This document shows, in pieces, positions 24,307 to 39,735 of a DNA stretch of 64,000 nt. A program made the translations under genes and the position numbers. Within the stretch, counting starts at the first letter, position 1. Each line of letters starts with the position of its first letter. The stretch is from an uncultured Thermoleophilia bacterium. GTDB lineage: Bacteria > Actinomycetota > Thermoleophilia > UBA2241. Below the pieces are notes generated by a model. That model did not search any database and was not told where the DNA came from. It was given only the letters and a program-made list of their open reading frames with translations. The DNA is taken from assembly GCA_964533575.1 (NCBI GenBank), contig CAZHMG010000005.1:1336-65335 (forward strand), in the 5' to 3' direction.

Positions 24307-25566
24307 TCAGTAGCGCAGGATCGCCGCGATCTCCGCTTGGTGAGGCATGCGCTCGTCCTCAAGCGCGTACACATTTCCGCCTTTCGCGATGGTCTCGACA
24401 AGCGCCCTGTCGAGCAACTCCTCGTCTCCGAGCTGACGCTCGTCGTGAACGGAGGGCACACCCGACTCGTTGTCGACCGCGCCCCAGACGGACGCCCCGT
24501 CCGCGAGGAGCAGCGTACCCACTCGCCCCTGCATGGCGGCAGGAAGGACGGCCGCCACTCCATGCAGTGCCTCGCCATGAGCCTCTCGGATCTCATACTT
24601 GTCGCGCTCCCCGTCGGCCCGTGCCAACACACGCGGCTCGATCAGCGCCCACGTTCGCGCGTGCAACAGCCCGTCGTCGAGCTGCTCTGTATTGCCATCG
24701 GCCGCGTCCTGCATGACGTGTCTGTATCGCGTGGCGGAGCGGAACAGGGGCAGGAGGTACTCGATGCCGGCCAGCAAGAGTGGATCCCGCTCGTCACGGA
24801 GGACCTCCATCACGCTCGCGTCAAGCTGGCGGAAGTACTCGAGGAGCCGTTCGTCGTCGTCGTCGCTGGCCTGCCCGTGACCGTGAAAGACGGCCGTGCT
24901 TCGATTGCCGACGCGAGCGCCGGTCCTGACCTGGAACTGCCGCTCCTGGCCCTCCACGGTTTCGAGCAGGTCATCCAGGCTGGCCGGCGCGCCTCGCAGG
25001 TCGATATCCTCCAGCCCGAAGCGATCCCCGCGCAAGAGCCGCGGCCCGCGGCGGTTCAGCGTGAGAACAAAGTATGTCTGGTCCCGCACCAGGCCGAGGA
25101 CGAGGGGTCGCAGATTGAAACGCGTGCCGGCTACAGCCATCTCGGGCACGGAGAACGGGACTTGGAAGGTGCGCATGGTGTCCGGCGTCAAGAAGACCGC
25201 AAGGCCCGCGTCCTGGTGGCTCCAGAAGAGGGTGTCACCCACGAGGTCGCGAGCTGGCTGCAGGAGAGAGGCGACCTCAGGTGTCCGCTGCCCGGACGCT
25301 TCGAGCTCGGACGCTGCCCGATCAAGGAGATTGCGGAAGCGCAGTGGATCCTGGACGATCTCGCGACCCCTTCTGTGCACGGGGACATAGATGGTGACTC
25401 GAGACTCGCCTCTGTCGTCCTGAAGCGCCGTGACATCGTTCCACGTCGGAGTGATCAGGTGGCTCACCTGCCTTTCGCCTCGCGCGAGTATGTACAAGCC
25501 GAGGGCCGGATGCTGGAGGACCGTCCACGATCCCGGACTGTCCGCTTCGGTCCATCGGTAAACCAT
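24307..25566 (-). CDS. bacterial eRF1/Pelota-like protein (baeRF / Vms1-type candidate peptidyl-tRNA hydrolase)
   Basis: The central segment AVFHGHGQASDDDDERLLEYFRQLD parallels eRF1 domain 2 (HGRGGQSALRF...NYVRKVAE). The C-terminus ...AEIAAILRY matches the eRF1/Pelota domain-3 ending GGIGGILRY. The start was chosen at MVYRWTEAD; the first 103 codons of the ORF are Pro/Ala-rich and probably non-coding. Confidence 0.5.
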   Translation of the reverse strand: MVYRWTEADSPGSWTVLQHPALGLYILARGERQVSHLITPTWNDVTALQDDRGESRVTIYVPVHRRGREIVQDPLRFRNLLDRAASELEASGQRTPEVASLLQPARDLVGDTLFWSHQDAGLAVFLTPDTMRTFQVPFSVPEMAVAGTRFNLRPLVLGLVRDQTYFVLTLNRRGPRLLRGDRFGLEDIDLRGAPASLDDLLETVEGQERQFQVRTGARVGNRSTAVFHGHGQASDDDDERLLEYFRQLDASVMEVLRDERDPLLLAGIEYLLPLFRSATRYRHVMQDAADGNTEQLDDGLLHARTWALIEPRVLARADGERDKYEIREAHGEALHGVAAVLPAAMQGRVGTLLLADGASVWGAVDNESGVPSVHDERQLGDEELLDRALVETIAKGGNVYALEDERMPHQAEIAAILRY

Positions 25567-25663
25567 CGCTGCTGACGAGGCGAGTCCAGTCGTCTGCTCG
25601 AACGTTGAACGGGAGGGCGCCGGAAGGATAGGCTGGCTCAACGGCGGCAGGGGGTGGACGACC

Positions 25664-26074
25664 ATGCTGAGTCGCTTCCGCGGCCCCGACCCGATCATGC
25701 AGGTGTTGTTCCAACTGATCACCCATATCGTGACGATCGCGGGGACCGCGGGAGGTCGTAGCGTCTTGCTAGTACTCGCCATTACCATCCACAATGTCCG
25801 TGAGGGGTTCGCGGTGGGCGTGGCGTGCGGCGCCACGGCGGCAGGGCTCCCGGGGGCAACACGTGGGGTGGCCATGGCGCGCGCACGGGGAATCGGTATT
25901 CAGCATGTTCCGGAAGGCGCTGAAGCGTCATGGCCGGTGATCCGCGTGCGCCTGTCACGCGCACAGCTTCTGGTGAAGTCTGTACTCAGGCGTGGTGGAG
26001 CTGCTGGTCGTCGCACCAGTGAGAGCGATGCGCGCCTTGCTGTGATGATGCTCCGGGAAGTGGCGATTGGCTGA
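25664..26074 (+). pseudogene. decayed fragment of a ZIP-family (ZupT/GufA-like) metal transporter
   Basis: Two ZIP signature motifs occur in order: LAITIHNVREGFAVGVACGA (HNxPEG with Pro replaced by Arg) and GIGIQHVPEGAEAS. The N-terminal half is missing and the C-terminal part is non-hydrophobic. Confidence 0.4.
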
Positions 26075-26204
26075 ACAGCGGACATCGCGCGTGGCCCCCC
26101 TGGGATCGGTGGTTCGGCCGCTCGCCTCGGCGGGTACCCCCAGTAAGGCGAGCGGTGGTTCCCATCTGCCGGAGGAGGGGCAATTGGCGGTGCCGAGGCG
26201 GAAG

Positions 26205-27761
26205 ATGGAGGACGTGCCCCTTTTGTTCCCGGTTGATGTTGCCGATGTTGCCAACATGACGGATGAGGCAGTCAGGGGTCGTGATATGCGCGGTGAGCGG
26301 ACGACGCGTGCGTCTGCGCGCCGCGCTCAAACGCCCGCCAAGTTGCGCGTGGTGGTGACGGCGGGCGCCGACGCAATCGGCATTCTGATCGCCTCTCTGC
26401 TGGCCGTCTTCGTCGCAGACGCGCTTTCGGGGGTGAGCGTCGTCGGCCGCCTCGTCACCCCGTTCGCAGGCGACGTCCCCGGGGACCTGATCACCTTCGT
26501 CCTCCTCATCCCGTTCTGGCTGGCCACGCTCTGGGCGTTCGGGCTTTACCGGGAGCCGGGCCGCAGCATCGGCGGGGCCAGTCTTTCCGAAACCCTCAAC
26601 GGCCCCACCGCGCTCACGGTGGCCGCTTGGCTTCTGCTCATCGTCTTCGTCCTGGCCGAGGGCGCTCAGGCTCCCATTGGAGAGCTCATCGTGTTCTGGC
26701 TGATCGCCGTGGTGCTCGTTCCGGCGATGCGCGTCCTCAGCCGGCGGACCATCTGGTCGAACGCGGCATTGAAGGAGCGCGTCCTCATCATCGGCGCGGG
26801 GGACGTCGGTCACACGCTGGCCGCCAAGATCAGCAAGCATCCGGAGTACCGCATGACGCTGGTGGGCTTCCTCGATGATGGCGAGCCGAGGAACAATGTC
26901 GTCGGCGGACCGGTCCTGCCGATGATCGGCGTCTTCGACGATTTGTCCCGTGTCGTGATCGAGCAGCGGATCGACAGGGTGATCGTGGCCTTCTCTCAGG
27001 CACGTCACGACGACTTCCTGCGCATTGTGCGCACGTGCGCGGATTCGGCGGTGCGGGTCAACATCGTCCCGCGCCTCTTCGAGGTGGTGAGCTCCCGCGC
27101 GCTCGTCGATGACGTCGAGGGCATTCCGCTGCTTGACGTCGGTCACGTGGAGCTCAGCCGCTTCAACAGGCTGGTGAAACGGGCCTTTGATCTTGTCGTC
27201 GGCGGCATCTGCTTCCTGTGCTTCCTTCCCGTGCTCGCCGTCATGGCGGTGGTCATCAAGATGGACTCCAAGGGTCCCGTCTTCTTTCTTCAAGAGCGCA
27301 TGGGGCGAGGCGGCAAGTCCTTCATGATGTACAAGTTCAGGTCGATGCATGTCGGCGCCGACAGGTTGCGCGCCGAGCTCGCCGAACAGAACGAGTACTC
27401 AGGGCCCATGTTCAAGATCAAAGAGGATCCTCGGGTGACACGGGTTGGACGATTCATCCGGCGGTGGAGCGTTGACGAGCTGCCGCAGATCATCAACGTC
27501 ATGCTGGGCGATATGAGCCTCGTGGGACCGCGCCCGTTGTGGGTGGATGAAGCCCGGCAGGTGCGTGGCTGGACGCAGAAGCGCCTCGACATCACACCAG
27601 GCATCACCGGGTTGTGGCAGGTTCTGGGCCGCAGTGACATCCCATTCGACGAGATGGTGAAGCTCGATTACATGTACGTGACCGGATGGAGCCTCAGCTG
27701 GGACATCAAGCTTCTGGTCCAGACGGTGCCGGCGGTTCTCGGCAAGCGCGGAGCGTATTGA
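26205..27761 (+). CDS. polyprenyl-phosphate hexose-1-phosphate transferase (WbaP/WcaJ-type priming glycosyltransferase)
   Basis: N-terminal TM helices and a Rossmann-like IIGAGDVGHTLA region are followed by the C-terminal sugar-transferase domain (FDLVVGGICFL...KFRSM...DELPQIINVMLGDMSLVGPRPL). Confidence 0.8.
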   Translation: MEDVPLLFPVDVADVANMTDEAVRGRDMRGERTTRASARRAQTPAKLRVVVTAGADAIGILIASLLAVFVADALSGVSVVGRLVTPFAGDVPGDLITFVLLIPFWLATLWAFGLYREPGRSIGGASLSETLNGPTALTVAAWLLLIVFVLAEGAQAPIGELIVFWLIAVVLVPAMRVLSRRTIWSNAALKERVLIIGAGDVGHTLAAKISKHPEYRMTLVGFLDDGEPRNNVVGGPVLPMIGVFDDLSRVVIEQRIDRVIVAFSQARHDDFLRIVRTCADSAVRVNIVPRLFEVVSSRALVDDVEGIPLLDVGHVELSRFNRLVKRAFDLVVGGICFLCFLPVLAVMAVVIKMDSKGPVFFLQERMGRGGKSFMMYKFRSMHVGADRLRAELAEQNEYSGPMFKIKEDPRVTRVGRFIRRWSVDELPQIINVMLGDMSLVGPRPLWVDEARQVRGWTQKRLDITPGITGLWQVLGRSDIPFDEMVKLDYMYVTGWSLSWDIKLLVQTVPAVLGKRGAY

Positions 27762-27959
27762 CGTCCCAGGAGCCTTTGTGGCGAGTTGCTGTGAGACGGC
27801 ACCTCAGATGATCAATCCTCCAGCCGCGATGTACCGACGAGTCTCGCCCTTCGAGACGACTGATGCGGCAGTCGCAATGGGTTTCATGCCAGGGAACAAG
27901 TGCACCCTGTTGGCATGACATGTCTGCCTGACTGCTGCGCACTCAGCTCCTGAGAGAGC

Positions 27960-28904
27960 ATGAGCGCTTGGTACCGTGCCCACAGAGTGACGGATGTGGC
28001 CGAGTGGACCGCGCTGTTCTCGACCGTTGAGCATCCCCGCATCACGCAGTCCTGGGCCTACGGGGAGGCCAAGCAGGCTGCGGCCGACTGGCACACGCGG
28101 CGAGTAGTCTTCGACGCGGGAGGCTGGCGCGCCCGGCGGCTCGTCATCAGCCGCCGCGGCGAACCGGTGGCGATCTGTCAGATACTGGACAAGTGCGTGG
28201 CCGGCGTCACCGTTGGGTCGCGGCTCAATCGCGGACCGCTGCTGCTCGGCCCCGACCCCGGCGAAGACACGACCAGGGACATCTATCGCCTGCTCAAAGG
28301 CAATGCGGTGCGCTCCTGCCGCCCGCTCGTCCTGGCACCGGCCTTGCCGGACACTCCCGAGGCCCATCGTCTGCTCAGCGAGCTCGGGTATCGGCCACGA
28401 CAGGCGCCCGGCTGGGTCTCCGACCGCGTGGACCTGCGCCCGGACGAAGAGCAGCTTCACAAGAACCTCCACAGGAACTGGTGCTGGGCCTTGCGCCGTG
28501 CCCAGAGAGAGGGCGTCGAGTTCCGGGTCTGCGACTCGACCGAGGATCTCGAGTGGCTTCTGGAACGGCACGTGGAGCACATGAAGGAGAAGCAGTTCGT
28601 CGGCATGCAGCCCGCCAGCGACGACTTCCTGGTCGCTCAGGTGCTGCTCGACGGCGAGCGATTGGGCGGTTCCATCACATGCCGCTTCGGCTGCATGGCG
28701 GAGGGCCTAGTCTTCTGGGTCGGACAGAATGGGCGACACATCAGCGCCGGCAACTACCTTGACTGGCGGGTCGCCGTGGAGCTGAAGCGCCGCGGGAGTC
28801 AGTGGTTCGACCTCGGAGGCAAGCGCGCCGGCGCCACGGAGCAGTTCAAAGCGGGCATGGGCGGCGTCGAGTATCGGCTGCTCAATGAGTGGGTGGCGTT
28901 CTGA
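27960..28904 (+). CDS. FemAB/FemX-like aminoacyltransferase-fold protein (GNAT Acetyltransf_6-like), paralog A
   Basis: N-terminal ITQSWAYGEAKQ...WH.RRVVFDAGG and the C-terminal WFDLGGKRAGATEQFKAGMGG resemble the FemX/FemAB lipid II aminoacyltransferase family. It lies 190 nt downstream of the priming GT. Confidence 0.5.
   Translation: MSAWYRAHRVTDVAEWTALFSTVEHPRITQSWAYGEAKQAAADWHTRRVVFDAGGWRARRLVISRRGEPVAICQILDKCVAGVTVGSRLNRGPLLLGPDPGEDTTRDIYRLLKGNAVRSCRPLVLAPALPDTPEAHRLLSELGYRPRQAPGWVSDRVDLRPDEEQLHKNLHRNWCWALRRAQREGVEFRVCDSTEDLEWLLERHVEHMKEKQFVGMQPASDDFLVAQVLLDGERLGGSITCRFGCMAEGLVFWVGQNGRHISAGNYLDWRVAVELKRRGSQWFDLGGKRAGATEQFKAGMGGVEYRLLNEWVAF
27987..28615. repeat. direct repeat copy A: 629-bp block about 99.8% identical to 29145..29774
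   Basis: By eye the nucleotide alignment is identical except for one substitution (ccccgcatc vs ccccacatc). The block spans the 5' two-thirds of FemAB-like paralog A. Confidence 0.9.
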
Positions 28905-29093
28905 ACCTGAGTTGCTCAGTGCTCAGGACTGCTCAGCGGTCACCGATCTTCAGACGGATCAGCGCCCAACCTGACACGGGCTGAGAGTATTCAGGCCAAG
29001 GCGATAGCTGCCGACACCGTGAGCGGGCATGACCGATGGCGGAGCGACTCTGCCGGCGGCTTCAATGGTGGTGTGATCACAGGGGAGCGATCA

Positions 29094-30095
29094 ATGACGA
29101 CTGCAGGCAGCGCGGATCTGAAGACCGACTACAGCGTCGATCTGGTGACGGATGCGGCCGAGTGGACCGCGCTGTTCTCGACCGTTGAGCATCCCCACAT
29201 CACGCAGTCCTGGGCCTACGGGGAGGCCAAGCAGGCTGCGGCCGACTGGCACACGCGGCGAGTAGTCTTCGACGCGGGAGGCTGGCGCGCCCGGCGGCTC
29301 GTCATCAGCCGCCGCGGCGAACCGGTGGCGATCTGTCAGATACTGGACAAGTGCGTGGCCGGCGTCACCGTTGGGTCGCGGCTCAATCGCGGACCGCTGC
29401 TGCTCGGCCCCGACCCCGGCGAAGACACGACCAGGGACATCTATCGCCTGCTCAAAGGCAATGCGGTGCGCTCCTGCCGCCCGCTCGTCCTGGCACCGGC
29501 CTTGCCGGACACTCCCGAGGCCCATCGTCTGCTCAGCGAGCTCGGGTATCGGCCACGACAGGCGCCCGGCTGGGTCTCCGACCGCGTGGACCTGCGCCCG
29601 GACGAAGAGCAGCTTCACAAGAACCTCCACAGGAACTGGTGCTGGGCCTTGCGCCGTGCCCAGAGAGAGGGCGTCGAGTTCCGGGTCTGCGACTCGACCG
29701 AGGATCTCGAGTGGCTTCTGGAACGGCACGTGGAGCACATGAAGGAGAAGCAGTTCGTCGGCATGCAGCCCGCCTTCCTCAGAGCCCTGCGCGACGCCGT
29801 GCCCGCCGGCGACGACTTCCTGGTCTCCCAGGTGCGGCTTGCGGATGAGCCGATCGGAGGCTTGATCACCTATCGTTTCGGCAGTGTCGCCGAGGGCCTC
29901 ATCCTCTGCGTGGGACCGGAGGCCCGGCGCGTGAATGCCTGCCGATTTCTCGACTGGCACACCGCTCTCGAGCTGAAGCGCCGCGGGTGTGAGTGGTTCG
30001 ACCTGGGAGGCAAACGCGCCGGCGCCACGGAGCAGTTCAAGGGAGGCATGGGCGGCGTCGAGTATGGGCTGCTCACTGAGTGGACGGTGCTCTGA
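29094..30095 (+). CDS. FemAB/FemX-like aminoacyltransferase-fold protein, paralog B
   Basis: Residues are identical to paralog A from AEWTALFS to GMQPA. It then diverges by a 33-nt insertion and about 80% identity to the end (WFDLGGKRAGATEQFKGGMGG). There is an RBS-like aggggag upstream of the ATG at 29094. Confidence 0.5.
   Translation: MTTAGSADLKTDYSVDLVTDAAEWTALFSTVEHPHITQSWAYGEAKQAAADWHTRRVVFDAGGWRARRLVISRRGEPVAICQILDKCVAGVTVGSRLNRGPLLLGPDPGEDTTRDIYRLLKGNAVRSCRPLVLAPALPDTPEAHRLLSELGYRPRQAPGWVSDRVDLRPDEEQLHKNLHRNWCWALRRAQREGVEFRVCDSTEDLEWLLERHVEHMKEKQFVGMQPAFLRALRDAVPAGDDFLVSQVRLADEPIGGLITYRFGSVAEGLILCVGPEARRVNACRFLDWHTALELKRRGCEWFDLGGKRAGATEQFKGGMGGVEYGLLTEWTVL
29145..29774. repeat. direct repeat copy B (partner of 27987..28615)
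   Basis: See copy A. The spacing is about 1158 bp. Confidence 0.9.
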
Positions 30096-30137
30096 GGTTC
30101 GGACGAGTTGGTTGAGCACCCATACTCCCCCGCGCGA

Positions 30138-31421
30138 TCATGAGAGGCGCGCGATCCCGCTGCCAGCCTGAGGTAAGGGAGCGACTGATGCCAAGCCGGT
30201 GGCCTCGGCACAGAAGCTGAGTTCGGCTCGCGACCCGCGCATGATCATCATCTTCGGCCTGCAGGCCCGCAACAAGGATTTCAGCCTCGAGGCGTTGTCA
30301 CGCGACCCGAGATGCTGATCGAGGTCACCCAGCGCGATCACGACCCTCGTGCATCCGTCGGCGGCGTCTGCAGGGCTAGCGGCGGCATCGGTCATGTCGG
30401 CAATGGCGAAGGCTCCTCCGTAGGCCCTTCTCATACGCTGGAGCATCTCAAGCTCACGTGCGTTGGCGGCAACAGCGACGCAATCGAACCCGCCGGCCTC
30501 CAGGGTCTTCGCCGCATAGCCCCATGCGGGGGTGATATCAACGATCGTCGCGGGCGGGATGGGCAGCATTCTGCGCACGTGCTCCACCGCCTGCACGCGA
30601 TCATGTCGGTGCGGTATTCCCCACAGGTCCGGGTGGAGGAGGGGCTCGGGAGCCTGGCCGCCGAGGGCGATGCAGGCGCGTGCGACCTCGATGCGCAGGC
30701 CGCTCCATTCCGCGTGGCGAGCTGCTATCCAGACCGGGATCTCGGGAACGCCGACCGCCTTTGCGATGGCCAGCCTGTGCCCTCCTTGGCATACCTGCAG
30801 CTCTCCATCGCGAGCGATGACGACGCTGATTTCGTCGAACTGCAGCGGCTTGTACCCGGCTGGCCGCAGCGCTGCGAGCTCGTCCTGGGAGAGATAGCCG
30901 TCGCGGCGCATGGACTCGTAGATGCGCTCATACCTGAGCAGGACGTCGCGGGCCTCAAGCAAGCGCTCCTGACGCCGCCAGGCGCGCCTCTCTGTGAGAG
31001 CACGACCGGCGAATCGCGCGTGGATTTCCGTACCCTCCCATGGTCGCGTTCCTTCGAGGGCCTCTCGCATCTGCACGTAGTACGTGCGTTCCTCGATCAC
31101 CCATGCGTGCAGGTCCCAGTCACCGGCAATCACTGCTCCCGGATGGAGCGTCGGGTAGTAATCTCCGGGGATCTCCGTGTGCCGGCGCAGCAGGGAAGTC
31201 GGAATTCTCACGACTCTGGCAACGTCGATGTAGGGATCCGTGCGTCGCAGCTGCGCAGCGCGAAGTCGTTTCCTGAATGCGCTCACGTGCAACTGCCGGC
31301 GGACGTCGTTTGCGTGGGTGTGAACGGCAGGGCATGCCGCGAGGGCGCAATCAAGCCGTCGCGCCAGAAGGTGGAGTGTCTCTCCGATTTCACGTGCACC
31401 GAGCATCGTCGTGAGCGGCAT
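30138..31421 (-). CDS. hypothetical multidomain protein with a ParB/sulfiredoxin-like segment and a C-terminal FkbM-like methyltransferase-fold segment
   Basis: FDEISVVIARDGELQVCQGGHRLAIAKAVGVPEIPVWI resembles the ParB N-terminal domain (LIAGERRWRAAKLAGL region). The C-terminal IVDITPAWGYAAKTLEAGGFDCVAVAANARELEML follows the FkbM pattern VIDVGAN.G.....G..V.AFEPNP. The start is at MPLTT with RBS ggtgaggaaagg. Confidence 0.35.
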   Translation of the reverse strand: MPLTTMLGAREIGETLHLLARRLDCALAACPAVHTHANDVRRQLHVSAFRKRLRAAQLRRTDPYIDVARVVRIPTSLLRRHTEIPGDYYPTLHPGAVIAGDWDLHAWVIEERTYYVQMREALEGTRPWEGTEIHARFAGRALTERRAWRRQERLLEARDVLLRYERIYESMRRDGYLSQDELAALRPAGYKPLQFDEISVVIARDGELQVCQGGHRLAIAKAVGVPEIPVWIAARHAEWSGLRIEVARACIALGGQAPEPLLHPDLWGIPHRHDRVQAVEHVRRMLPIPPATIVDITPAWGYAAKTLEAGGFDCVAVAANARELEMLQRMRRAYGGAFAIADMTDAAASPADAADGCTRVVIALGDLDQHLGSRDNASRLKSLLRACRPKMMIMRGSRAELSFCAEATGLASVAPLPQAGSGIARLS

Positions 31422-31599
31422 CGTGATCGTCCTTTCCTCACCTGAAACGCTTCCGCTGCCGAATATGGGACATGGGAGCAGCGTCACGATACTCCTATCG
31501 ACAACGATCCGGCGGTCCGCCCATCATGACCATAGGTAAGATGTGACGTTCATTCATTTGGGCATACCGGGGTATCGGCCGACTTGAGACGGAGTGTGA

Positions 31600-33012
31600 A
31601 TGCAGTACCTTGATCGACTTCGCGGCTACTATGTGCGCGCCCCTCGTTGGGTTCATACCACGGGAGGCTTTGCCTTAGCTGCGCTGCCACCACATCTCAT
31701 TTACGGCAGGACGTTCCGAGAGGTCCAAGCTGAGGTGGGTCGCAGCGAATGGGACGCAGGCTTTGTCGAAGGTCGTGTGCAAGCGTCTCTCGCGACAGTG
31801 TGGGACCACGCGAAGCGGACCGCCTATTATCAAGAGCTGGCCGGCTCTCTTGGCGGTGAGGAGCTGACACCGGACAATCTCTCTCGGCTCCCGATCCTCG
31901 ATAAGGAGAGCGTGCGCCGGCGGGTACAGGACATGCTGGCCAAACCTCTCGCCGACATGGACGAGGTATCGACGGGAGGCACATCGTCCATGATGCCGTT
32001 GACGTTCTACCTCGACAAGGACAGGAGCGTGAGGGAATGGGCCTTCCTCACGCATCTGTGGCAGAGATTCGGCTACGAAGTGGGCGACCGGCTCGCCGTC
32101 CTGGGCTATCGGGGTGTGACGCACGTCTCAAGGCCCTCGTCCACGCCCTGGACCTGGGAGCCGGGTACCCGCGAGTTGCGACTATCGCCCCTGCGCATGG
32201 TGCCGCCGGTGATGGACGAGTATCTCGTCCAGATCCGCCGCTTCAAGATCAACTTCATCTATGGGTACCCCTCTGCGATCGCCATCCTGGCCGCTCACGC
32301 CGCCAGCAGCGGCTGGTCCAGGCCGGCCTCATTCAAGGGGGTGCTCCTCATGTCGGAGTCGGTGCGGCCCCTGCAGCGGGAGATCATCCGCGACGGGTTC
32401 GGCGGCGTGCCTGTCATGGCAGGCTACGGTCTCAGCGAGAAGGTTGCGATCGGCGGGGAGATTCCCGGTCAGCCTGACGTGTACGAGTTCGAGCCGCTCT
32501 ATGGCGCTGCCGAACTCGTCGATGCTGCCGGGAACCCCATCACTGAGCCCGGCCAGAAGGGCAGACTCGTCGGCACCGGATTTGTCTCACTCGGTATGCC
32601 GATGATTCGCTACGACACAGGAGATCTCGCGATCTCCGTCCGGAGTCCGGGGGCGGAGAACTGCTGGCGCCTTCGCGTGCGCAACATCACCTCACGTCAC
32701 TGCCAGGACTACCTTGTGACCCGGGAGAAAGGCCTGATCTCACACACCGTCCTCTATCCGCACAACAGGATCATCAGGGAGTGCCAGTTCGTGCAGGACC
32801 AGCCTGGAGCCGCGCTGCTGCGTGTGGTCCTCTTGCCCGGGACCAGTCCAGCCGATCTGGTGGCTTTCAGTCAGAAGATCAAAGAGCGGGCGGACGGCCT
32901 GATCTCAGTGCACCTGGAGCCGGTCGATGAGATCCGTCTCACTCGGCGGGGCAAGAGAGTCCTCGTCGAGCAGCACCTGGATTTACGGCAGTACGGGCTG
33001 GCCGATGAGTAG
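31600..33012 (+). CDS. CapK-like adenylate-forming enzyme (phenylacetate-CoA ligase family)
   Basis: The AMP-binding core STGGTSSMMPLTFY and the overall PaaK/CapK-like layout are present. It sits within the polysaccharide locus. Confidence 0.7.
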   Translation: MQYLDRLRGYYVRAPRWVHTTGGFALAALPPHLIYGRTFREVQAEVGRSEWDAGFVEGRVQASLATVWDHAKRTAYYQELAGSLGGEELTPDNLSRLPILDKESVRRRVQDMLAKPLADMDEVSTGGTSSMMPLTFYLDKDRSVREWAFLTHLWQRFGYEVGDRLAVLGYRGVTHVSRPSSTPWTWEPGTRELRLSPLRMVPPVMDEYLVQIRRFKINFIYGYPSAIAILAAHAASSGWSRPASFKGVLLMSESVRPLQREIIRDGFGGVPVMAGYGLSEKVAIGGEIPGQPDVYEFEPLYGAAELVDAAGNPITEPGQKGRLVGTGFVSLGMPMIRYDTGDLAISVRSPGAENCWRLRVRNITSRHCQDYLVTREKGLISHTVLYPHNRIIRECQFVQDQPGAALLRVVLLPGTSPADLVAFSQKIKERADGLISVHLEPVDEIRLTRRGKRVLVEQHLDLRQYGLADE

Positions 33013-33112
33013 GTCGCGCGTTGTGCGCATGCTGCCGATGAAGCTCCGCCGCATGCTGTCAGGCGCTGACGGCTTCGGCGGGAGACCTCCGGCGCGGCGC
33101 GAGACGATTGTG

Positions 33113-34201
33113 ATGGCCATCCTCCATCCTGCCGCTCAAGGTCCCTTGCCCAAGATAGCTCCTCTGCTCGTCGCGGCGCTCGAGCGGGCGGGATGGGAGG
33201 TGCGAACGACGTTCTGGGGCGGGAGACGCGCCAACGAGACGCTCCCGGAGAAGCTTCTCATCCGGTCGGGCGAGCTGGTGATCGCCATCGGCCGGCTCAT
33301 TGCCCACAGGGACGCCGTGCTGTTCGTGAATACATCGCACAGCCGGAAGGGTTTGGCCAGGGACATACCGCTTCTCTGCGCAGCCAAGTGCGTTGGTCGT
33401 GGGACGATTGTGCTCTGGCACGGCAGCGAGCCGCACAGGGTTGCGGAGCAACCATACTCGGCCCTGGGGCTCGCATCGGCGCTTCTGGCGCGCTGCGCCG
33501 ATGCGGTGCTCGTGCTCTCCCAGAGAGAGATCGAGCTCTTGAGCTCGGCGCTGCCGCATGGGCACTTCTTCCGTGTCGTCAATCCCTACCTCGAGAAGAC
33601 GTCGTGGCCGGAGCGCTCCCACCAGGGGTCACCGACGATTCTCTTCGTCGGGCGGGTGATCAGGGCCAAGGGCGTGTTCGAACTCCTGGAGGCATTCGCG
33701 TCGCTGAGTGCGACGCGAGACTGCCGGATGGTCATCGCGGGAGACGGTCCAGATCTGCCGGTCGTCCGGTCGTGGCTGAAGGAGCGTGGCCTCACCGCCC
33801 GCGTCGACATGCCCGGCTACCTGGATGAAGCGGGTCTCATGCAGCGCTACGTCGATGCGGACATCTTCGTTCTCCCGTCGTATTCGGAGGGATTCCCGAC
33901 GGTGATCAGCGAGGCCATGGATGCGGGTCTTGCGATCGTGACGACACCATGCGGCGGGATGCCTGATCACCTGGGGGAGGGCGTGAACTGTCTGTTCGTG
34001 AAGGCCGGTGAGGCCAGAGGTCTGGAATCGGCCATCACGATGCTTCTCGAACAGCCGGAGCTGCGTGCTGCCATGGGCGCCGCCAACCGTCGCCGGGTGA
34101 GGGAGTTCGCGCCAGAGGCGGTGATCGGCGGCTACGCGCAGGCCTTGGACTTCGTCGCGGCAACTTCACGTCCACGACGCCCCGTCAAGCGTGCTCCCTA
34201 G
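33113..34201 (+). CDS. glycosyltransferase family 4 (GT-B)
   Basis: The C-terminal GT4 motif FVLPSYSEGFPTVISEAMDAGLAIVTTPCGG is present. The start was chosen at MAILHP; alternatives are ATG 33005 and 33029, both overlapping the CapK stop. Confidence 0.75.
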   Translation: MAILHPAAQGPLPKIAPLLVAALERAGWEVRTTFWGGRRANETLPEKLLIRSGELVIAIGRLIAHRDAVLFVNTSHSRKGLARDIPLLCAAKCVGRGTIVLWHGSEPHRVAEQPYSALGLASALLARCADAVLVLSQREIELLSSALPHGHFFRVVNPYLEKTSWPERSHQGSPTILFVGRVIRAKGVFELLEAFASLSATRDCRMVIAGDGPDLPVVRSWLKERGLTARVDMPGYLDEAGLMQRYVDADIFVLPSYSEGFPTVISEAMDAGLAIVTTPCGGMPDHLGEGVNCLFVKAGEARGLESAITMLLEQPELRAAMGAANRRRVREFAPEAVIGGYAQALDFVAATSRPRRPVKRAP

Positions 34202-35504
34202 ACGGAGGCGACGCATCGCCGCTGCACCGCGACGATAGAGGTGCCCGGTGTCCGCGCAATGGAGACGAGACCAGAAGGCACGCGCGTGTCATCCAACGGC
34301 GCGACAGACGGAGCGTTCCAGCGGCGCTTGGTCCAGGGTCGGACCAGCGGAAGTACGGGAAGGTCTGCCTGTGGAGGAGGCTCACGAGCCAGCCACACAG
34401 CGTGAGACGCCCCTTGGCGCGCAATTGCCGGAAGGCGCGCAAGTCGCTCTCCGGGTACCAGAGGTGGAGCCCGCTTCGGTAGGTGCGTCCGCAAAACGGC
34501 TGTTGTGGTCCCTGGACGAGACGGTTATACACGAGAGGCGCGAAGTCATACCCGCTGCTGGCCACGAGCGGTGTCGCGGCCGTGAAGCGGGCGTTGATTT
34601 CCATGACCTTCAACTTACCGTCTCTCGGGTCGCGCTTGAACTCGACGTTGCCGATCCCGCGCACGTCCATGTACGTGAGGAGCCGGAGTCCGAGTGCCGC
34701 GACCTCTGGATTCCAATCGGTCACGTGGTAGCAGGCGAGACCTTGGTTCTCTGGATAGCGCCGAATGACTCGCTTGGTGAAGTGGAACAGGGGTTCCCCG
34801 TGCTCGTCTCGGTACGTGTAATAGCTGCACAGGAGGTGGTCGGGCCCGGGGATCATCTCGACGATGATGACGTCCAGGTCGGTCTTCCGCACTTTCTCGA
34901 AGTCATGCAAGAGGTCCTCGAAATCCTCCGCCACAAGGAACTTCCTGCCGAACACGGCGCTGAATCGGTGTGTGTAGAGCGGCTTCAGGATGAGCGGGTA
35001 GGTGAACTCGTCTCTGGATGCGAGAAGTTCGTCAACGGTCTCGATGCGCCAAAAACGGGGAGCAGGGACTCCCGCCTCGGCTGCCTTCTGATACGTGCAT
35101 AGCTTGCTGAGCGCGCACGCTTGGGCTTTGACGTTGGAGATGTCGAGCCGGAATCTCTGAGAGAGCTCTTGCCTGGTGTTGAGGATGAGTTCGATGCCGA
35201 CATCGGAACAGGCAAGCAGGACAGCCCCACGCAAGGAGTCGGACCGCGGTCCGAGCAGGAAGTCTCGCCAGGCGACGGCCGCGGGGAGATTCTGCGGCAA
35301 CCGCACGAACGTGACGTACCGCGAGTACCTCTCGACGTAAGGGAAGCCAGGTTCACCGAGCAAGTAGACGCTCACTCGCATGCGACCAAGACTCCTGGCT
35401 ACGGACATTGCGCTGCCCATGTGCCCGCCAAGGAGGATCACGGGCGGAAGCGCAGATGATCCGTCTCGTCTCGAATTGCGTGCCTGCAGGCCGCTGCGCA
35501 CCAT
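34185..35504 (-). CDS. ATP-grasp domain ligase
   Basis: N-terminal PPVILLGGHMGSAMSVARSLGR, the central YPLILKPLYTH, and VMEINARFT (ATP-grasp C-terminal subdomain) are present. Confidence 0.65.
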   Translation of the reverse strand: MVRSGLQARNSRRDGSSALPPVILLGGHMGSAMSVARSLGRMRVSVYLLGEPGFPYVERYSRYVTFVRLPQNLPAAVAWRDFLLGPRSDSLRGAVLLACSDVGIELILNTRQELSQRFRLDISNVKAQACALSKLCTYQKAAEAGVPAPRFWRIETVDELLASRDEFTYPLILKPLYTHRFSAVFGRKFLVAEDFEDLLHDFEKVRKTDLDVIIVEMIPGPDHLLCSYYTYRDEHGEPLFHFTKRVIRRYPENQGLACYHVTDWNPEVAALGLRLLTYMDVRGIGNVEFKRDPRDGKLKVMEINARFTAATPLVASSGYDFAPLVYNRLVQGPQQPFCGRTYRSGLHLWYPESDLRAFRQLRAKGRLTLCGWLVSLLHRQTFPYFRWSDPGPSAAGTLRLSRRWMTRACLLVSSPLRGHRAPLSSRCSGDASPPSREHA

Positions 35505-36039
35505 CGTTCTCCTGTTCGTCAAGCCGCAGGAAGTATAGCCCAGCTTCACGGGGAGCTTTGCAGCAACACGGATTCCGTACTTCGCAACCCGCAGTGCTCT
35601 GCTTCCGCTGGCTCAAGCTGGCATCAGAACACGTCCTTCTGCTTGCCGTCTTGTTGCCCTCGCGGGCGACGCGCATTCGTCCTGGCCCAGCAAACCAAGC
35701 CGATGCTCTCAAGGAGCAGCGAGTGTGCTCCATGTGCGTTCAATGGAACCTGGAGAATCGCCGGGTGTGACGGCTTCACCGCGAACCTCGACCACGGCGG
35801 CGTGTGATCTCGCATGTCAACTCCGATGTCGTCCCGTCGGGGCTGCACGTGGATGGGCTGGAGACGTTGCTGCGATGCTGACGAACGCTCCCCGTCCTCC
35901 TGATCCAGTAAACTCACGTTTCCATGAATAGACTGCAGCCAAAGGGGGTGTGGGTGCACGAGGCCGTGAGCGACCTTCTCGTCGGCATTCCATATGAAGT
36001 GCCGCCGACCGAGCCGCTGCGTGGCGGCGGGACGTTGGC

Positions 36040-37575: not shown

Positions 37576-37740
37576 CGCTTCTCCAGTGAAGACGGCGCCA
37601 TCGGAATGGTCGGGTAGACTTGCGCGGGGCATGGGTAGGACCCGGGCTATCGGGGCCGATGAGGGGGAGGTCCTGGTGCGCGGCGGCGCCGATCGCATTT
37701 GGGCTTGGTGTCGGCTGACGAAGAGAGGATCGATCGGACT

Positions 37741-39735
37741 ATGACAGCACTACTCAGGCCCGGCCTCGATCGTGTGCTGGCGGGAGTCCCTCTCCCTTGG
37801 CAGGTCCGTCGCCTGCGGATGATGTCGGCACTCGAGGTTGCGCAGAGGATCCAGTGTCATGCACGCCTGTCCGTCTGGCGACGCCGCCGACGTTGGCCTC
37901 CTCCCCGCTTCGTGGCCCGGCCCGCTCGCGGCGCCTACAAGCTTCCTGCCTGTATCAGCGAGAGTGATGCTGCAGCAGTTCGCCAGCAGGCGGACGCCAT
38001 GCTGAGCGGGCGGATGACTCTGCTTGGGCAAGAGTTCTCGCTGTGCGAAGTGAACTGGAGCCTGGATCCCCAGAGCGGTAGCACGGCGCCCATGGCCTTT
38101 GGTCCCACACTCGACTATCGCGATGCTGGACTCGCCGGCAATGCGCGAAACATCTGGGAGCTCAATCGCCATCAGCATCTGACGCTGGCAGCTCTCGCTT
38201 ACGCGCTCTCCGGCGAGGAGCGTTACGCCGACTTCGTCCGTGAACAGATCGATTCTTGGCTGGATCAGAACCCGTTTCCCCTTGGCGTCAACTGGGGGAG
38301 TTCGCTTGAGCTGGGCTTACGGCTGATCTCCTGGGTCTGGATCTCCCGCTTTCTCAACGGAAGCGTGCACTGGGACGCTCTCTTCGGCGAATTCGGCCGG
38401 CTTTGGCCATCCGTCCATCGGCACCAGTGGATGATCGCGGCTCGGCGATCCGTTGGATCATCGGCGAACAACCACTTGATCGGCGAGATGGCCGGGTTGT
38501 TCGTATCTGCCGCCGAGTGGCCGTGGTTTGAAAGCTCCAAGGCATGGAGCGAACGTGCGCGACAGTCACTGGAGACGGAGATCGTCAAGCAGTTCTACCC
38601 GTCGGGACTCAATCGTGAGCAGGCCTTCGGCTATCACGTCTTCGCCACAGAGCTTCTCCTCATGGCCGGAGTGGAAGGGCAGAGGGCCGGGCGGCCCTTC
38701 TCGCGGGGCTATCGCGAAAAGCTGTGCGCCGCCACGGAGGCAGGCGTCGCGCTGGTTGCGCCCAAGGGGCCCGCGCCCACGTATGGCGACTCTGATGACG
38801 GCGTCGCCGTGGGCCTGCCGGGCGGCGGTCAGTATGCCCTCGAGCGCATCGTCGCCGTCGTCGGCCGATGGCTGACGCCCGTGACAAGTGAGCTGCCGCT
38901 GCCCCGTGAAGCGGTGTTTGCTGCGAACCTGGAGCTGTCGGGTCTGTGTGGTGCTGGATCAGACTTGCGGCGCATCCCGTCCAGTCCAACGGATCTGACT
39001 CGTTCCCGCGCGTTCTTCGACGCAGGCCTGTTCCTGATGCGATCGCGGGCGGAAGGCCAGGACATCCTCGTGACGGCGGATGCCGGAGAACTCGGCTACC
39101 TCAGCATCGCGGCTCACGGCCACGCCGACGCTCTTTCGTTCACCTTGGCCGTCGAAGGCGAACCGCTGCTCATCGACCCCGGAACATTCGCCTACCACTA
39201 CGATCTCAAAGCGCGCGCCTACTTCCGTGGGACGCCGGCACACAACACCATCTGGGTGGATGGCGCGGACCAGTCGCAGCCGGGCGGACCCTTCATGTGG
39301 ACGCGGAAAGCCCGCGTGACGGTGCAAGCGTGGCGTCCCGCGGCGGACGGAGGACTGCTGACCGCGAGCCACGACGGCTACGAGCGTCTGACGAGACCGG
39401 TGACGCATCGGCGCACACTCTCGCTTCAGGGAGAGCAGTTGTGTGTCGATGATGAGCTCAGCGGAGAGGGAAAGCACGACATCGAGTGGCGTTTGCACGT
39501 AGCGCCGCAGTGCGCCGTGAGACTGGACGGGGAGGAGTGCAACGTACGGGGTGAGAGGCACGACCTCTCCATCAGGCTGGACGGCGCCTTGCAGTGGCGC
39601 TGCATGGTGGGCGAAGAGAGTGGAGGATGGTTCTCCGGCGGCTTCAATCGCCGCGAGAAGACGACGACGATTGTGGGCGTCGCACGACTCCCGATGCCTG
39701 CGCGACTTCGACACGTAGTGAGAGTGACTTCATGA
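37741..39735 (+). CDS. heparinase II/III-like protein (alginate-lyase-type N-domain plus Hepar_II_III C-domain)
   Basis: WGSSLELGLRLISWVWISRF and NNHLIGEMAGLF are present, and the C-terminal AAHGHADALSFTL...PGTFAYHY...GTPAHNTIWVDG is typical of the Hepar_II_III domain. Confidence 0.7.
   Translation: MTALLRPGLDRVLAGVPLPWQVRRLRMMSALEVAQRIQCHARLSVWRRRRRWPPPRFVARPARGAYKLPACISESDAAAVRQQADAMLSGRMTLLGQEFSLCEVNWSLDPQSGSTAPMAFGPTLDYRDAGLAGNARNIWELNRHQHLTLAALAYALSGEERYADFVREQIDSWLDQNPFPLGVNWGSSLELGLRLISWVWISRFLNGSVHWDALFGEFGRLWPSVHRHQWMIAARRSVGSSANNHLIGEMAGLFVSAAEWPWFESSKAWSERARQSLETEIVKQFYPSGLNREQAFGYHVFATELLLMAGVEGQRAGRPFSRGYREKLCAATEAGVALVAPKGPAPTYGDSDDGVAVGLPGGGQYALERIVAVVGRWLTPVTSELPLPREAVFAANLELSGLCGAGSDLRRIPSSPTDLTRSRAFFDAGLFLMRSRAEGQDILVTADAGELGYLSIAAHGHADALSFTLAVEGEPLLIDPGTFAYHYDLKARAYFRGTPAHNTIWVDGADQSQPGGPFMWTRKARVTVQAWRPAADGGLLTASHDGYERLTRPVTHRRTLSLQGEQLCVDDELSGEGKHDIEWRLHVAPQCAVRLDGEECNVRGERHDLSIRLDGALQWRCMVGEESGGWFSGGFNRREKTTTIVGVARLPMPARLRHVVRVTS

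What the first reader, a model, noticed from the sequence alone, without database searches (positions are those of the whole stretch)
27987..29774. Tandem FemAB-like paralogs with a homogenised 629-bp 5' block (about 99.8% nt identity) and diverged 3' ends: signature of recent gene conversion
Nucleotides 27987-28615 and 29145-29774 are identical apart from one substitution (CGC vs CAC, Arg vs His). Upstream of the block the two genes have unrelated N-terminal extensions. Downstream there is a 33-nt indel and then only about 80% identity. This mosaic is what gene conversion or unequal crossover between tandem paralogs produces. It implies selection to keep the N-terminal (acceptor-binding?) domains identical while the C-terminal (donor/aa-tRNA-specificity?) domains diversify. 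It also marks a likely assembly-collapse hotspot.
Basis: seen in the sequence. Interest (0 to 1): 0.65.

Follow-up and report, generated by a model that had tools for sequence, protein, structure and literature searches.

The report
Gene-conversion patch between tandem Fem-like genes
Two neighbouring genes for Fem-like (double-GNAT) transferases in a polysaccharide gene cluster share a 630-base stretch that was recently copied from one gene into the other; this is a clean but ordinary example of bacterial gene conversion, and one of the two copies looks damaged.

Summary
Window 27987-28616 and 29145-29774 (630 nt) differ at two positions, not one. A 33-nt segment is present only in copy 2. The 295-nt tails are 76.6% identical (62-92% locally). 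The genes are tandem PF13480 double-GNAT proteins with a predicted FemX/Sba18-like fold. They lie in a Wzx/Wzy polysaccharide cluster next to the priming sugar transferase.

The block is an internal patch. Diverged but family-typical N-termini flank it on the left and diverged tails on the right. It has no synonymous differences, against dS of about 0.56 in the tails. Trees disagree: the copies are sisters in the block (300/300) and not in the tail. Non-reciprocal gene conversion fits best.

The tract ends at the 33-nt indel, which in copy 2 is bounded by a 7-nt direct repeat (GCCCGCC). All 34 homologues keep these 11 residues, so the deletion is derived in copy 1. It removes helix alpha2 of the second GNAT domain.

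Separate Logan assemblies of three sequencing runs support the tandem layout. This is a known phenomenon of modest interest.

The parts
26067..27761 (+). Context: priming polyprenyl glycosylphosphotransferase, directly upstream of copy 1
   Evidence: TIGR03025 397 bits, PF02397 214 bits. It is syntenic with L086 and L087.
27960..28904 (+). Copy 1 (314 aa). PF13480 double-GNAT, Fem-like. Carries the derived 11-aa deletion and Arg at the conserved HPH histidine.
   Evidence: PF13480 scores only 30 bits, against 64 bits for copy 2. The exact protein is P0102 on an NCBI contig of 71,721 nt. AF2 model pLDDT is 86, falling to 51 at the deletion junction.
27987..28616 (+). Homogenised block, copy 1 side (630 nt; 619 nt with one difference if counted from 27998)
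   Evidence: No synonymous differences across about 159 synonymous sites.
28610..28616 (+). Single GCCCGCC at the deletion junction in copy 1
28617..28904 (+). Diverged tail T1 (beta2 to beta6 of GNAT domain 2, including the FK motif)
   Evidence: 76.6% nt and 64% aa identity to T2. About 96-97% identical to the tail of the single degraded copy in L103.
28905..29093 (+). Intergenic spacer between the copies. No similarity to the region upstream of copy 1.
   Evidence: Spanned without a break by the independent Logan contig L001.
29094..30095 (+). Copy 2 (333 aa from ATG 29094, with AGGGGAG 7 nt upstream). Full-length PF13480 double-GNAT protein.
   Evidence: PF13480 64 bits. The exact protein is P0100, from the NCBI record. 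AF2 pLDDT 91.8. Foldseek TM 0.66-0.76 to Sba18/Sbb17, FemX and FemA.
29145..29774 (+). Homogenised block, copy 2 side
29775..29807 (+). 33-nt segment (residues 228-238, FLRALRDAVPA) present only in copy 2. It is bounded by the direct repeats GCCCGCC at 29768-29774 and 29801-29807, and encodes helix alpha2 of GNAT domain 2.
   Evidence: Present in all 34 homologues aligned. Helix H226-235 in the model. Repeat positions.
29808..30095 (+). Diverged tail T2
   Evidence: closest to P0003, 78% aa; sister in 178/300 bootstraps
30138..31421 (-). Context: orphan ORF (427 aa, P0104), convergent with copy 2. Absent from the syntenic L086 locus, but found next to a PF13480 gene and an AMP ligase in L106.
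   Evidence: No Pfam or PDB sequence match. Only five homologues besides the window's own protein, P0104. L106 context.
31600..33012 (+). Context: CapK/PaaK-like AMP-forming ligase. It follows the single Fem-like gene directly in L086.

Best explanation
Two real, tandemly arranged paralogous genes encode PF13480 double-GNAT (FemX-like) transferases in a Wzx/Wzy-type polysaccharide cluster. The organism is high-GC and probably actinobacterial. The two genes were already deeply diverged along their whole length.

A recent non-reciprocal homologous recombination event (interlocus gene conversion) then overwrote an internal patch of 619-630 nt in one copy with the sequence of the other. On the left the tract stops where usable homology ends, at the variable N-terminal codons. 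On the right it stops at a 33-nt heterology.

That heterology is a derived deletion in copy 1 between two GCCCGCC direct repeats. Either it pre-existed and blocked heteroduplex extension, or it arose in the same event by out-of-register re-annealing or template switching at the microhomology. The direction of transfer is unresolved.

What is shown: the mosaic, its sharp borders, the loss of synonymous divergence, the tree incongruence and the derived status of the deletion. What is inferred: the recombination mechanism, its timing, and that copy 1 is under relaxed constraint. Copy 1 has lost helix alpha2 of GNAT domain 2 and has Arg at a conserved His.

By analogy with FemX, Sba18 and Orf11, the intact protein probably transfers an aminoacyl group, possibly from aa-tRNA, onto a sugar-linked amine of the polysaccharide repeat unit. 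This function is inferred, not tested.
For: Block and tails:
- The 630-nt block has 2 differences, against 69 in the 295-nt tails. P = 2e-69.
- The block has 0 synonymous differences over about 159 synonymous sites, and both differences are non-synonymous. The tail has dS = 0.56 and dN = 0.22.

Patch structure:
- Both copies keep their own family-typical N-termini. Copy 2 has DYSVDLVTD (compare P0002, DYRVDPVTD). Copy 1 has MSAWYRAHRVTD (compare P0005, MSAPCTARAVTN).
- Both copies also keep their own tails.
- Upstream DNA and the DNA downstream of each copy are not repeated.

Tree incongruence:
- In the block, c1 and c2 are sisters in 300/300 bootstraps.
- In the tail they are sisters in 1/200 bootstraps of the 36-sequence tree, and were not among the four commonest sister groupings in 300 replicates of the 14-sequence tree. 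c2 groups with P0003 in 178/300.
- Tail amino-acid identity between c1 and c2 (64%) is no higher than to homologues from other organisms at 66-78%.
- Third-codon-position identity in the first 62 tail codons is at the between-lineage level.

The deletion:
- All 34 homologues keep the 11 residues.
- The 7-nt direct repeats are located.
- The residues form helix alpha2. Copy 1's PF13480 score falls to 30 bits, and its model loses confidence at the junction.

Independent assemblies:
- L001 (SRR13723396) spans T1, the spacer, copy 2 and the downstream gene at 99.9%.
- L104 (SRR13723394) matches 29745-31929 at 100% and ends exactly 30 nt inside the repeat edge. A k=31 graph does this when two continuations exist.

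Gene conversion between paralogs producing such mosaics is documented in Actinobacteria, for example M. tuberculosis PE/PPE genes (PMC12046097).
Against: - No read-level data were available. The junction from the block to T1 (with the deletion) is seen only in the window's own contig, apart from the graph branch implied by L104.
- No relative was found with two copies in an unconverted state, so the ancestral sequence of the overwritten patch is unknown.
- The direction of transfer has conflicting hints. L103 links a 96%-identical block to the T1 tail, which suggests copy 1 as donor. The deletion scar at the tract end sits in copy 1, which suggests copy 1 as recipient.
- Averaged over the tail, dS between T1 and T2 (0.56) is somewhat lower than to L086 (0.88-0.96). 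A lineage-specific duplication with fast protein evolution therefore cannot be fully excluded as the origin of the paralogy.
Confidence: 0.8

Rival explanations
1. Recent tandem duplication of a single ancestral gene, followed by replacement of the flanks (tail and N-terminus) of one copy through recombination with a foreign, diverged allele. Under this reading the identical block is the residue of the duplication, not a conversion tract.
For: - The closest syntenic relative, L086, has only one Fem-like gene between the sugar transferase and the AMP ligase.
- The sister-strain contig L103 has a single copy.
- The tails are not sisters in the tree, and c2's tail groups with P0003.
Against: - It needs at least three events: a duplication plus two separate flank replacements, or one replacement that spans the spacer.
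- The 240 nt between T1 and the second block are not repeated downstream of copy 2, as a simple duplication unit would require.
- L103's gene ends with T2-like last codons followed by the DNA that lies downstream of copy 2. This is most simply a deletion product of a two-copy ancestor.
- Both N-termini are bona fide family N-termini.
Confidence: 0.1
2. Assembly artefact. The tandem arrangement or the identity of the block was created by the assembler, either as a chimeric join of two strain alleles or as consensus smoothing of a repeat in a metagenome-assembled contig.
For: - The source looks like a metagenomic contig: relatives occur only in metagenomes and MAGs.
- A 630-nt exact repeat is hard for short-read assemblers.
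- Logan contig L001 carries the copy-1 allele (G at 29197) inside copy 2, which shows allele mixing.
- The block-to-T1 junction is not directly covered by another contig.
Against: - L001 independently joins T1, the spacer, the copy 2 N-terminus, the block, the 33-nt segment, T2 and the downstream gene.
- L104 breaks exactly k-1 nt inside the repeat edge, which implies two real continuations in a different sequencing run.
- The window assembly distinguishes the two copies at two sites.
- The spacer and both N-termini are unique sequence. A strain-allele chimera would not create them.
Confidence: 0.05
3. Identity of the N-terminal (acceptor-binding) part is maintained by selection through concerted evolution, while the C-terminal (donor-specificity) parts diversify. 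The result would be two working enzymes with one acceptor and two donors.
For: - In FemX the C-terminal GNAT domain carries the tRNA-binding helix and the catalytic Lys (PMC12945691).
- Both copies keep the invariant FK motif and intact reading frames.
- Tail omega of 0.40 indicates some purifying selection.
- FemA and FemB are a precedent for paralogous Fem enzymes acting in sequence (own knowledge).
Against: - One recent event says nothing about selection, since synonymous sites are identical too.
- The tandem pairs in L002 and L016 are equally diverged in both halves.
- L086 manages with one copy, and the L103 strain has one pseudogenised copy.
- Copy 1 lacks conserved helix alpha2 and has Arg at a conserved His. 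Both post-conversion substitutions are non-synonymous.
- The tract border lies about 35 residues inside domain 2, not at the domain border.
Confidence: 0.05

Closest known systems
Interlocus (ectopic) gene conversion between bacterial paralogs, for example the tufA/tufB genes of Salmonella and the PE/PPE genes of Mycobacterium tuberculosis
   Same: A near-identical tract is embedded in otherwise diverged paralogs. The gene structure is mosaic, with exact matches to the partner gene. The transfer is an internal, non-reciprocal patch. PMC12046097 describes the same signature. The tuf example is from my own knowledge.
   Different: Here the partners are adjacent (start-to-start spacing 1158 nt) and the flanks are very diverged, down to about 62% nt. 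The tract end coincides with a 33-nt deletion bounded by a 7-nt microhomology. Neither the donor nor the unconverted state has been observed.
FemX / FemA / FemB peptidoglycan aminoacyl transferases (FemABX family, PF02388)
   Same: The predicted fold is a double GNAT, with Foldseek TM 0.71-0.76 to FemX of W. viridescens and S. aureus. The profile matches S. aureus FemX (6snr) at E = 6e-7. An invariant FK motif sits in the C-terminal GNAT domain, where FemX_Wv has its catalytic Lys305. FemA and FemB are themselves paralogs that act in sequence (own knowledge).
   Different: Sequence identity is 12-15%. PF02388 scores below its gathering threshold (15 against 24 bits). There is no coiled-coil insertion. 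The genomic context is a Wzx/Wzy polysaccharide cluster, not cell-wall precursor genes, so the acceptor is probably a sugar-linked amine. Use of aa-tRNA is untested.
Sba18 / Sbb17 (Orf11-type) aminoacyl-tRNA-dependent peptide synthases acting on the amino sugar compound streptothrisamine
   Same: These are the best structural matches (E = 4e-18, 20% identity). They are also sequence-profile matches over GNAT domain 2, including the RFK motif. The acceptor is an amine on a sugar-containing molecule. The review PMC12945691 describes Orf11 as Gly-tRNA-dependent.
   Different: Those enzymes belong to antibiotic biosynthetic clusters. The genes here sit beside a priming glycosyltransferase, Wzx, Wzy and several GT4 genes. 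No substrate is known.
TIGR03019 FemAB-family XrtA/PEP-CTERM system-associated protein
   Same: It is a Fem-like PF13480 protein encoded in exopolysaccharide loci together with an AMP-forming ligase and a priming sugar transferase.
   Different: The score is 19 bits against a cut-off of 260, so the window's genes are not members. No PEP-CTERM/exosortase component was seen among the ORFs scanned between 12.5 and 52 kb.

Membership tests
Interlocus gene conversion tract | A near-identical tract inside paralogs that are otherwise clearly diverged, beyond chance | tested here: met
   2/630 against 69/295 differences. Binomial P = 2e-69, Fisher 2e-34.
Interlocus gene conversion tract | The tract is an internal patch, with diverged homologous sequence on both sides. 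This excludes a single unequal crossover or a simple duplication. | tested here: met
   Own N-termini and upstream DNA on the left, own tails on the right. The spacer is not repeated downstream.
Interlocus gene conversion tract | Synonymous divergence collapses within the tract relative to the flanks | tested here: met
   0 synonymous differences over about 159 sites, against 27 over 69 sites (dS 0.56). Fisher 1e-16.
Interlocus gene conversion tract | Phylogenetic incongruence between the tract and the flanks | tested here: met
   Block: c1+c2 sisters in 300/300. Tail: sisters in 1/200; c2 groups with P0003 in 178/300. The tail is short (95 aa), so the placement of c1 is weakly resolved.
Interlocus gene conversion tract | The unconverted (ancestral) state is observed in a close relative, which would identify donor and recipient | tested here: inconclusive
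   The only close relative, L103 (about 96% in coding DNA), has a single, degraded copy. The L002 and L016 pairs are unconverted but too distant.
Interlocus gene conversion tract | Both copies confirmed on single molecules (reads spanning the repeat) | not testable with these tools
   No reads were available. Indirect support comes from Logan contigs L001 and L104.
FemABX / aa-tRNA-dependent double-GNAT transferases | Two GNAT domains in one chain with a cleft between them | tested here: met
   AF2 model, pLDDT 91.8. Foldseek top hits are Sba18/Sbb17, FemX_Sa, FemX_Wv and FemA, with TM 0.66-0.76. This rests on a predicted structure, not a solved one.
FemABX / aa-tRNA-dependent double-GNAT transferases | Passes the curated Pfam FemAB (PF02388) model | tested here: not met
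   15.3 bits against a cut-off of 24 for copy 2, and no hit for copy 1. Both copies pass PF13480 Acetyltransf_6.
FemABX / aa-tRNA-dependent double-GNAT transferases | Conserved Lys (FK motif) in the C-terminal GNAT domain, equivalent to FemX_Wv Lys305 and DhpH-C Lys329 | tested here: met
   K316 is invariant and F315 nearly invariant in 36 sequences. The motif aligns with RFK of Sba18 in the profile alignment. The role of the Lys is described in PMC12945691. Equivalence to FemX_Wv Lys305 itself is inferred, not aligned.
FemABX / aa-tRNA-dependent double-GNAT transferases | Uses aminoacyl-tRNA as the acyl donor | not testable with these tools
   This needs biochemistry. An acyl-CoA or other donor is not excluded: PF13480 is annotated simply as an acetyltransferase (GNAT) domain.
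TIGR03019 PEP-CTERM-associated FemAB protein | Passes the NCBIfam equivalog cut-off | tested here: not met
   19.3 bits against 260.35.

The most novel reading that the evidence does not exclude
The tract end and the 33-nt deletion could be products of one event. A conversion or template-switch intermediate would have re-annealed out of register at the GCCCGCC microhomology, where homology between the paralogs collapses. Gene conversion itself would then have created an in-frame deletion of a substrate-site helix (alpha2 of GNAT domain 2). The outcome would be a Fem-like variant with the partner's acceptor-side domain and a remodelled donor-side domain, still under some constraint (tail omega 0.40). 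On this reading, conversion would generate a new enzyme variant in a polysaccharide-modifying pair, rather than only homogenising or degrading it.
Probability: 0.08. Interest if true: 0.5.

Novelty: new member of a known kind. Interest (0 to 1): 0.25.

Why it matters
- It is a tidy, well-bounded natural example of interlocus gene conversion in an uncultured high-GC bacterium. The left end of the tract is set by loss of homology. The right end is set by a 33-nt heterology flanked by microhomology.
- For annotation, copy 1 should not be assumed to be a functional duplicate of copy 2.
- For assembly, the 630-nt repeat breaks or mixes short-read assemblies of this polysaccharide locus.
- It does not open a new biological question. 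Gene conversion among bacterial paralogs is well known, and nothing here shows that the pair has a special function.

Tried and rejected
- **Simple recent tandem duplication.** Rejected. The tails are 62-77% identical, the spacer is not repeated downstream of copy 2, and both copies have their own family-type N-termini.
- **Single unequal crossover hybrid.** Rejected, because the block is flanked by diverged sequence on both sides.
- **Orthologous two-copy loci.** The genome-contig scan found only relatives at or below 45% identity. The metagenome scan gave 17 loci, with one copy each wherever the context was visible. Only L002 and L016 have tandem pairs, and neither is homogenised.
- **Exact-protein look-ups.** Copy 1, a guessed start of the sugar transferase, P0006 and P0009 returned nothing. 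I therefore could not obtain an independent contig across the junction from the transferase to copy 1, or from the block to T1.
- **L103's 14/14 match to copy 2's 33-nt segment.** I tried to use it to infer the direction of conversion and dropped it. The distant L086 also matches 12/14 there, so the site is simply conserved.
- **Raised similarity in the last ~100 nt of the tails.** I considered it an older conversion tract. The same region is conserved at third positions across unrelated family members and in the L002 pair, so it is not evidence.
- **Promoter and terminator scan of 27600-30300.** It found nothing.
- **Orphan ORF 30138-31421.** It has no Pfam or PDB sequence match.
- **TIGR03019 (PEP-CTERM FemAB) membership.** Rejected on score.
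Full report
**1. The observation**

A repeat search and a local alignment confirm a long direct repeat. BLASTN of an independent contig against the window shows its full extent. Window 27987-28616 and 29145-29774 are an ungapped 630-nt match.

- 27997 T / 29155 C (Val/Ala), 10 nt from the left edge.
- 28039 G / 29197 A (Arg/His).

A 33-nt segment is present only in copy 2. Its exact position is ambiguous because a 7-nt direct repeat, GCCCGCC, bounds it at 29768-29774 and 29801-29807. Copy 1 keeps a single GCCCGCC at 28610-28616. The remaining 295 nt are 76.6% identical. Identity falls to about 62% in the middle of the tail and rises to about 90% in the last 100 nt.

Given the tail divergence, the probability of two or fewer differences in 630 nt is 2e-69.

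**2. What the genes are**

| | Copy 1 | Copy 2 |
|---|---|---|
| Coordinates | 27960-28904 | 29094-30095 |
| Length | 314 aa | 333 aa |
| Sequence before the ATG | GAGAGAG, 2 nt upstream | AGGGGAG, 7 nt upstream |
| PF13480 (Acetyltransf_6) score | 30 bits | 64 bits |

Both copies pass PF13480. The Pfam FemAB model stays below threshold, at 15 against 24 bits. The PEP-CTERM FemAB equivalog TIGR03019 is far below its cut-off.

An AlphaFold2 model of copy 2 built on 36 homologues is confident (pLDDT 91.8) and shows two GNAT domains. Foldseek against the PDB returns these as the best matches, with TM 0.66-0.76 at 12-20% identity:
- the aminoacyl-tRNA-dependent peptide synthases Sba18 and Sbb17;
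- FemX of S. aureus and W. viridescens;
- FemA.

A profile of the family also matches S. aureus FemX and Sba18 by sequence. The family's invariant FK motif aligns with RFK of Sba18. According to a recent review, the corresponding Lys is the key active-site residue in FemX_Wv and DhpH-C, and the C-terminal GNAT domain carries the tRNA-binding helix (PMC12945691). "FemAB-like" is therefore right at the level of fold and superfamily. Formal PF02388 membership is not met, and use of aa-tRNA is untested.

**3. Genomic context**

The pair sits in a Wzx/Wzy-type polysaccharide cluster spanning about 26-50 kb. The cluster contains:
- the priming polyprenyl glycosylphosphotransferase, directly upstream;
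- an orphan ORF;
- a CapK/PaaK-like AMP ligase;
- several GT4 glycosyltransferases;
- an ATP-grasp-like protein;
- Wzx;
- a heparinase II/III-like protein;
- UDP-glucose dehydrogenase;
- a polysaccharide deacetylase;
- a Wzy-like polymerase;
- a Wzz/tyrosine-kinase-like protein.

GC content is 65%. The nearest named relatives of the Fem-like gene (45% identity) are actinobacterial MAGs. The window also holds Holin-X and GT87 domains. An actinobacterial origin is inferred, not shown.

**4. Why gene conversion**

- **The block is an internal patch.** To its left, each copy has its own N-terminal codons and its own upstream DNA. Both N-termini look like ordinary N-termini of this family: copy 2 has DYSVDLVTD (P0002 has DYRVDPVTD), and copy 1 has MSAWYRAHRVTD (P0005 has MSAPCTARAVTN). 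To its right, each copy has its own tail. The 240 nt between T1 and the second block are not repeated downstream of copy 2. This rules out a plain duplication unit and a single unequal crossover.
- **Synonymous divergence collapses in the block.** It has 0 synonymous differences over about 159 synonymous sites, and both differences are non-synonymous. The tail has dS 0.56, dN 0.22 and omega 0.40. The Fisher test gives 1e-16.
- **The trees disagree.** In the block the two copies are sisters in 300/300 bootstraps. In the tail they are sisters in 1/200. Copy 2 groups with P0003 in 178/300, and copy 1 usually falls outside that clade.
- **The tails are deeply diverged.** Tail amino-acid identity between the copies (64%) is no higher than to homologues from other organisms at 66-78%. 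Third-position identity over the first 62 tail codons is at the between-lineage level.

Mosaics of this kind are the accepted signature of gene conversion between bacterial paralogs, including in Actinobacteria (PMC12046097).

**5. The right-hand border and the deletion**

All 34 homologues aligned keep the 11 residues (consensus ALLRALYxAAP), so the 33-nt indel is a derived deletion in copy 1. In the copy 2 model these are residues 228-238, that is, helix alpha2 of the second GNAT domain (H226-235). In the copy 1 model the helix is replaced by a low-confidence loop, with pLDDT about 51.

The deletion lies between two GCCCGCC repeats, as expected for slippage or microhomology-mediated joining. 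The change from about 100% to diverged sequence occurs within about 18 nt of it. Two readings fit:
- The deletion pre-existed and blocked heteroduplex extension.
- The deletion was made in the same event, by out-of-register re-annealing at the microhomology.

I cannot separate these two readings.

**6. Relatives**

- **L086**, a syntenic sediment contig with neighbouring proteins about 70-78% identical, has the order baeRF-like gene, sugar transferase, ONE Fem-like gene, AMP ligase, GT4. It has no second copy and no orphan ORF.
- **L002 and L016** are the only two of about 100 loci with tandem pairs. Their members are equally diverged in both halves: L002 is 60.5% identical in the N-terminal part and 61.1% in the C-terminal part.
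- **L103**, a JGI contig of 978 nt, is a much closer strain. Its coding DNA is about 96% identical, with dS about 0.07-0.10, and its intergenic DNA about 85-87%. It carries a single, degraded copy. The order is: DNA upstream of copy 1, a 157-nt deletion that removes the start codon, the block, the first 14 nt of the 33-nt segment, another deletion of about 140 nt, the T1 tail, T2-like last codons, and then the DNA that lies downstream of copy 2 in the window.

L103 is most simply the deletion product of a two-copy ancestor, made by a crossover near the conserved 3' ends and followed by decay. It shows that the T1-type gene once had the 33-nt segment. It also shows that this locus is in flux rather than held under tight selection.

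**7. Direction of transfer**

The direction is unresolved. L103 links a 96%-identical block to T1, which hints that copy 1 was the donor unless conversion has been recurrent. The deletion scar at the tract end sits in copy 1, which hints that copy 1 was the recipient.

**8. State of the two copies**

Copy 1 carries the helix deletion and Arg at the conserved HPH histidine. L103 and nearly all homologues have His there. Both changes post-date the split from L103. Copy 2 is full length but has Cys at the nearly invariant Trp272 and Thr in the LLNEW motif. Both copies keep the FK motif and open reading frames. I judge that copy 1 is probably under relaxed constraint. This is an inference.

**9. 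Is it an assembly artefact?**

Both proteins are on record from one NCBI contig of 71,721 nt, which is probably the source of the window. Three Logan assemblies of separate sequencing runs bear on the question (for the last two):
- **L001** (SRR13723396) matches window 28650-30702 at 99.9%. It joins T1, the spacer, all of copy 2 and the downstream gene.
- **L104** (SRR13723394) matches 29745-31929 at 100% and stops exactly 30 nt inside the right edge of the repeat. That is where a k=31 graph breaks if two continuations exist. I assume k=31 for Logan.
- **L105** covers the orphan ORF.

L001 has the copy-1 allele (G) at 29197. This is either a polymorphism or bubble-popping in a collapsed repeat. 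These data make an artefact unlikely. Read-level confirmation was not possible.

**10. Comparison with what is known, and verdict**

The mechanism is ordinary interlocus gene conversion. The proteins are new, distant members of the Fem-like double-GNAT superfamily in a polysaccharide cluster. The only unusual detail is that the tract end coincides with a microhomology-bounded in-frame deletion. The inference that selection keeps the N-terminal domains identical is not supported. My verdict is a real feature, correctly recognised, that is a new instance of a known kind and of modest interest.

Noticed in passing
window 30138-31421 (-); L106 1281-2549: An orphan ORF (427 aa, P0104) is convergent with copy 2. 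It has no Pfam or PDB sequence match, and only five homologues besides the window's own protein (P0104) turned up among 5.8 billion clusters. It is absent from the syntenic L086 locus. In L106 its homologue (46% identity) again lies beside a PF13480 gene and an AMP-binding ligase, so it may belong to the same modification module.
   Followed up: partly
L103 1-978 (JGI 3300009166): A sister strain, about 96% identical in coding DNA, carries a single pseudogenised copy. Its start codon is deleted, it has a second internal deletion of about 140 nt with a frameshift, and it joins a T1-type tail to the DNA downstream of copy 2. It looks like the deletion product of a two-copy ancestor.
   Followed up: yes
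L087 947-1900 (ENA sediment contig): The single Fem-like gene next to the sugar transferase matches P0002 almost exactly up to about residue 285. It then continues with unrelated sequence, from either a 3' truncation or a rearrangement. This is a further sign that the gene is unstable at this locus.
   Followed up: no
window 24307-25875 (-): A baeRF-family protein (bacterial archaeo-eukaryotic release-factor-like; NCBIfam AOC03_06830-family ribosome hibernation factor, below cut-off) lies just upstream of the polysaccharide cluster. The long ORF has a 150-aa N-terminal extension that is probably not real. The gene is conserved in the same position in L086.
   Followed up: no
L004 1031-3073 and L005 (Logan SRR13723394 and SRR13723393): Sequencing runs with adjacent accession numbers to those that carry the window's sequence (SRR1372339x) contain a different organism with two convergent PF13480 genes (P0069, 323 aa, and a 339-aa gene on the other strand). 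Paired Fem-like genes therefore recur in other arrangements.
   Followed up: no
window 34185-35549 (-), 37699-39735 (+), 47503-48678 (+): The cluster also encodes an ATP-grasp-like protein (weak CPSase_L_D2 match), a heparinase II/III-like protein and a pectate-lyase-like beta-helix protein. With the Fem-like genes and the AMP ligase, this suggests an amino-acid-decorated uronic-acid polysaccharide, with its own lyases.
   Followed up: no
window 32927-34201 (+) versus 31600-33012 (+): The longest ORF of the GT4 gene overlaps the AMP-ligase gene by 86 nt. Homology to L086 begins at residue 37, so the true start is probably downstream.
   Followed up: no
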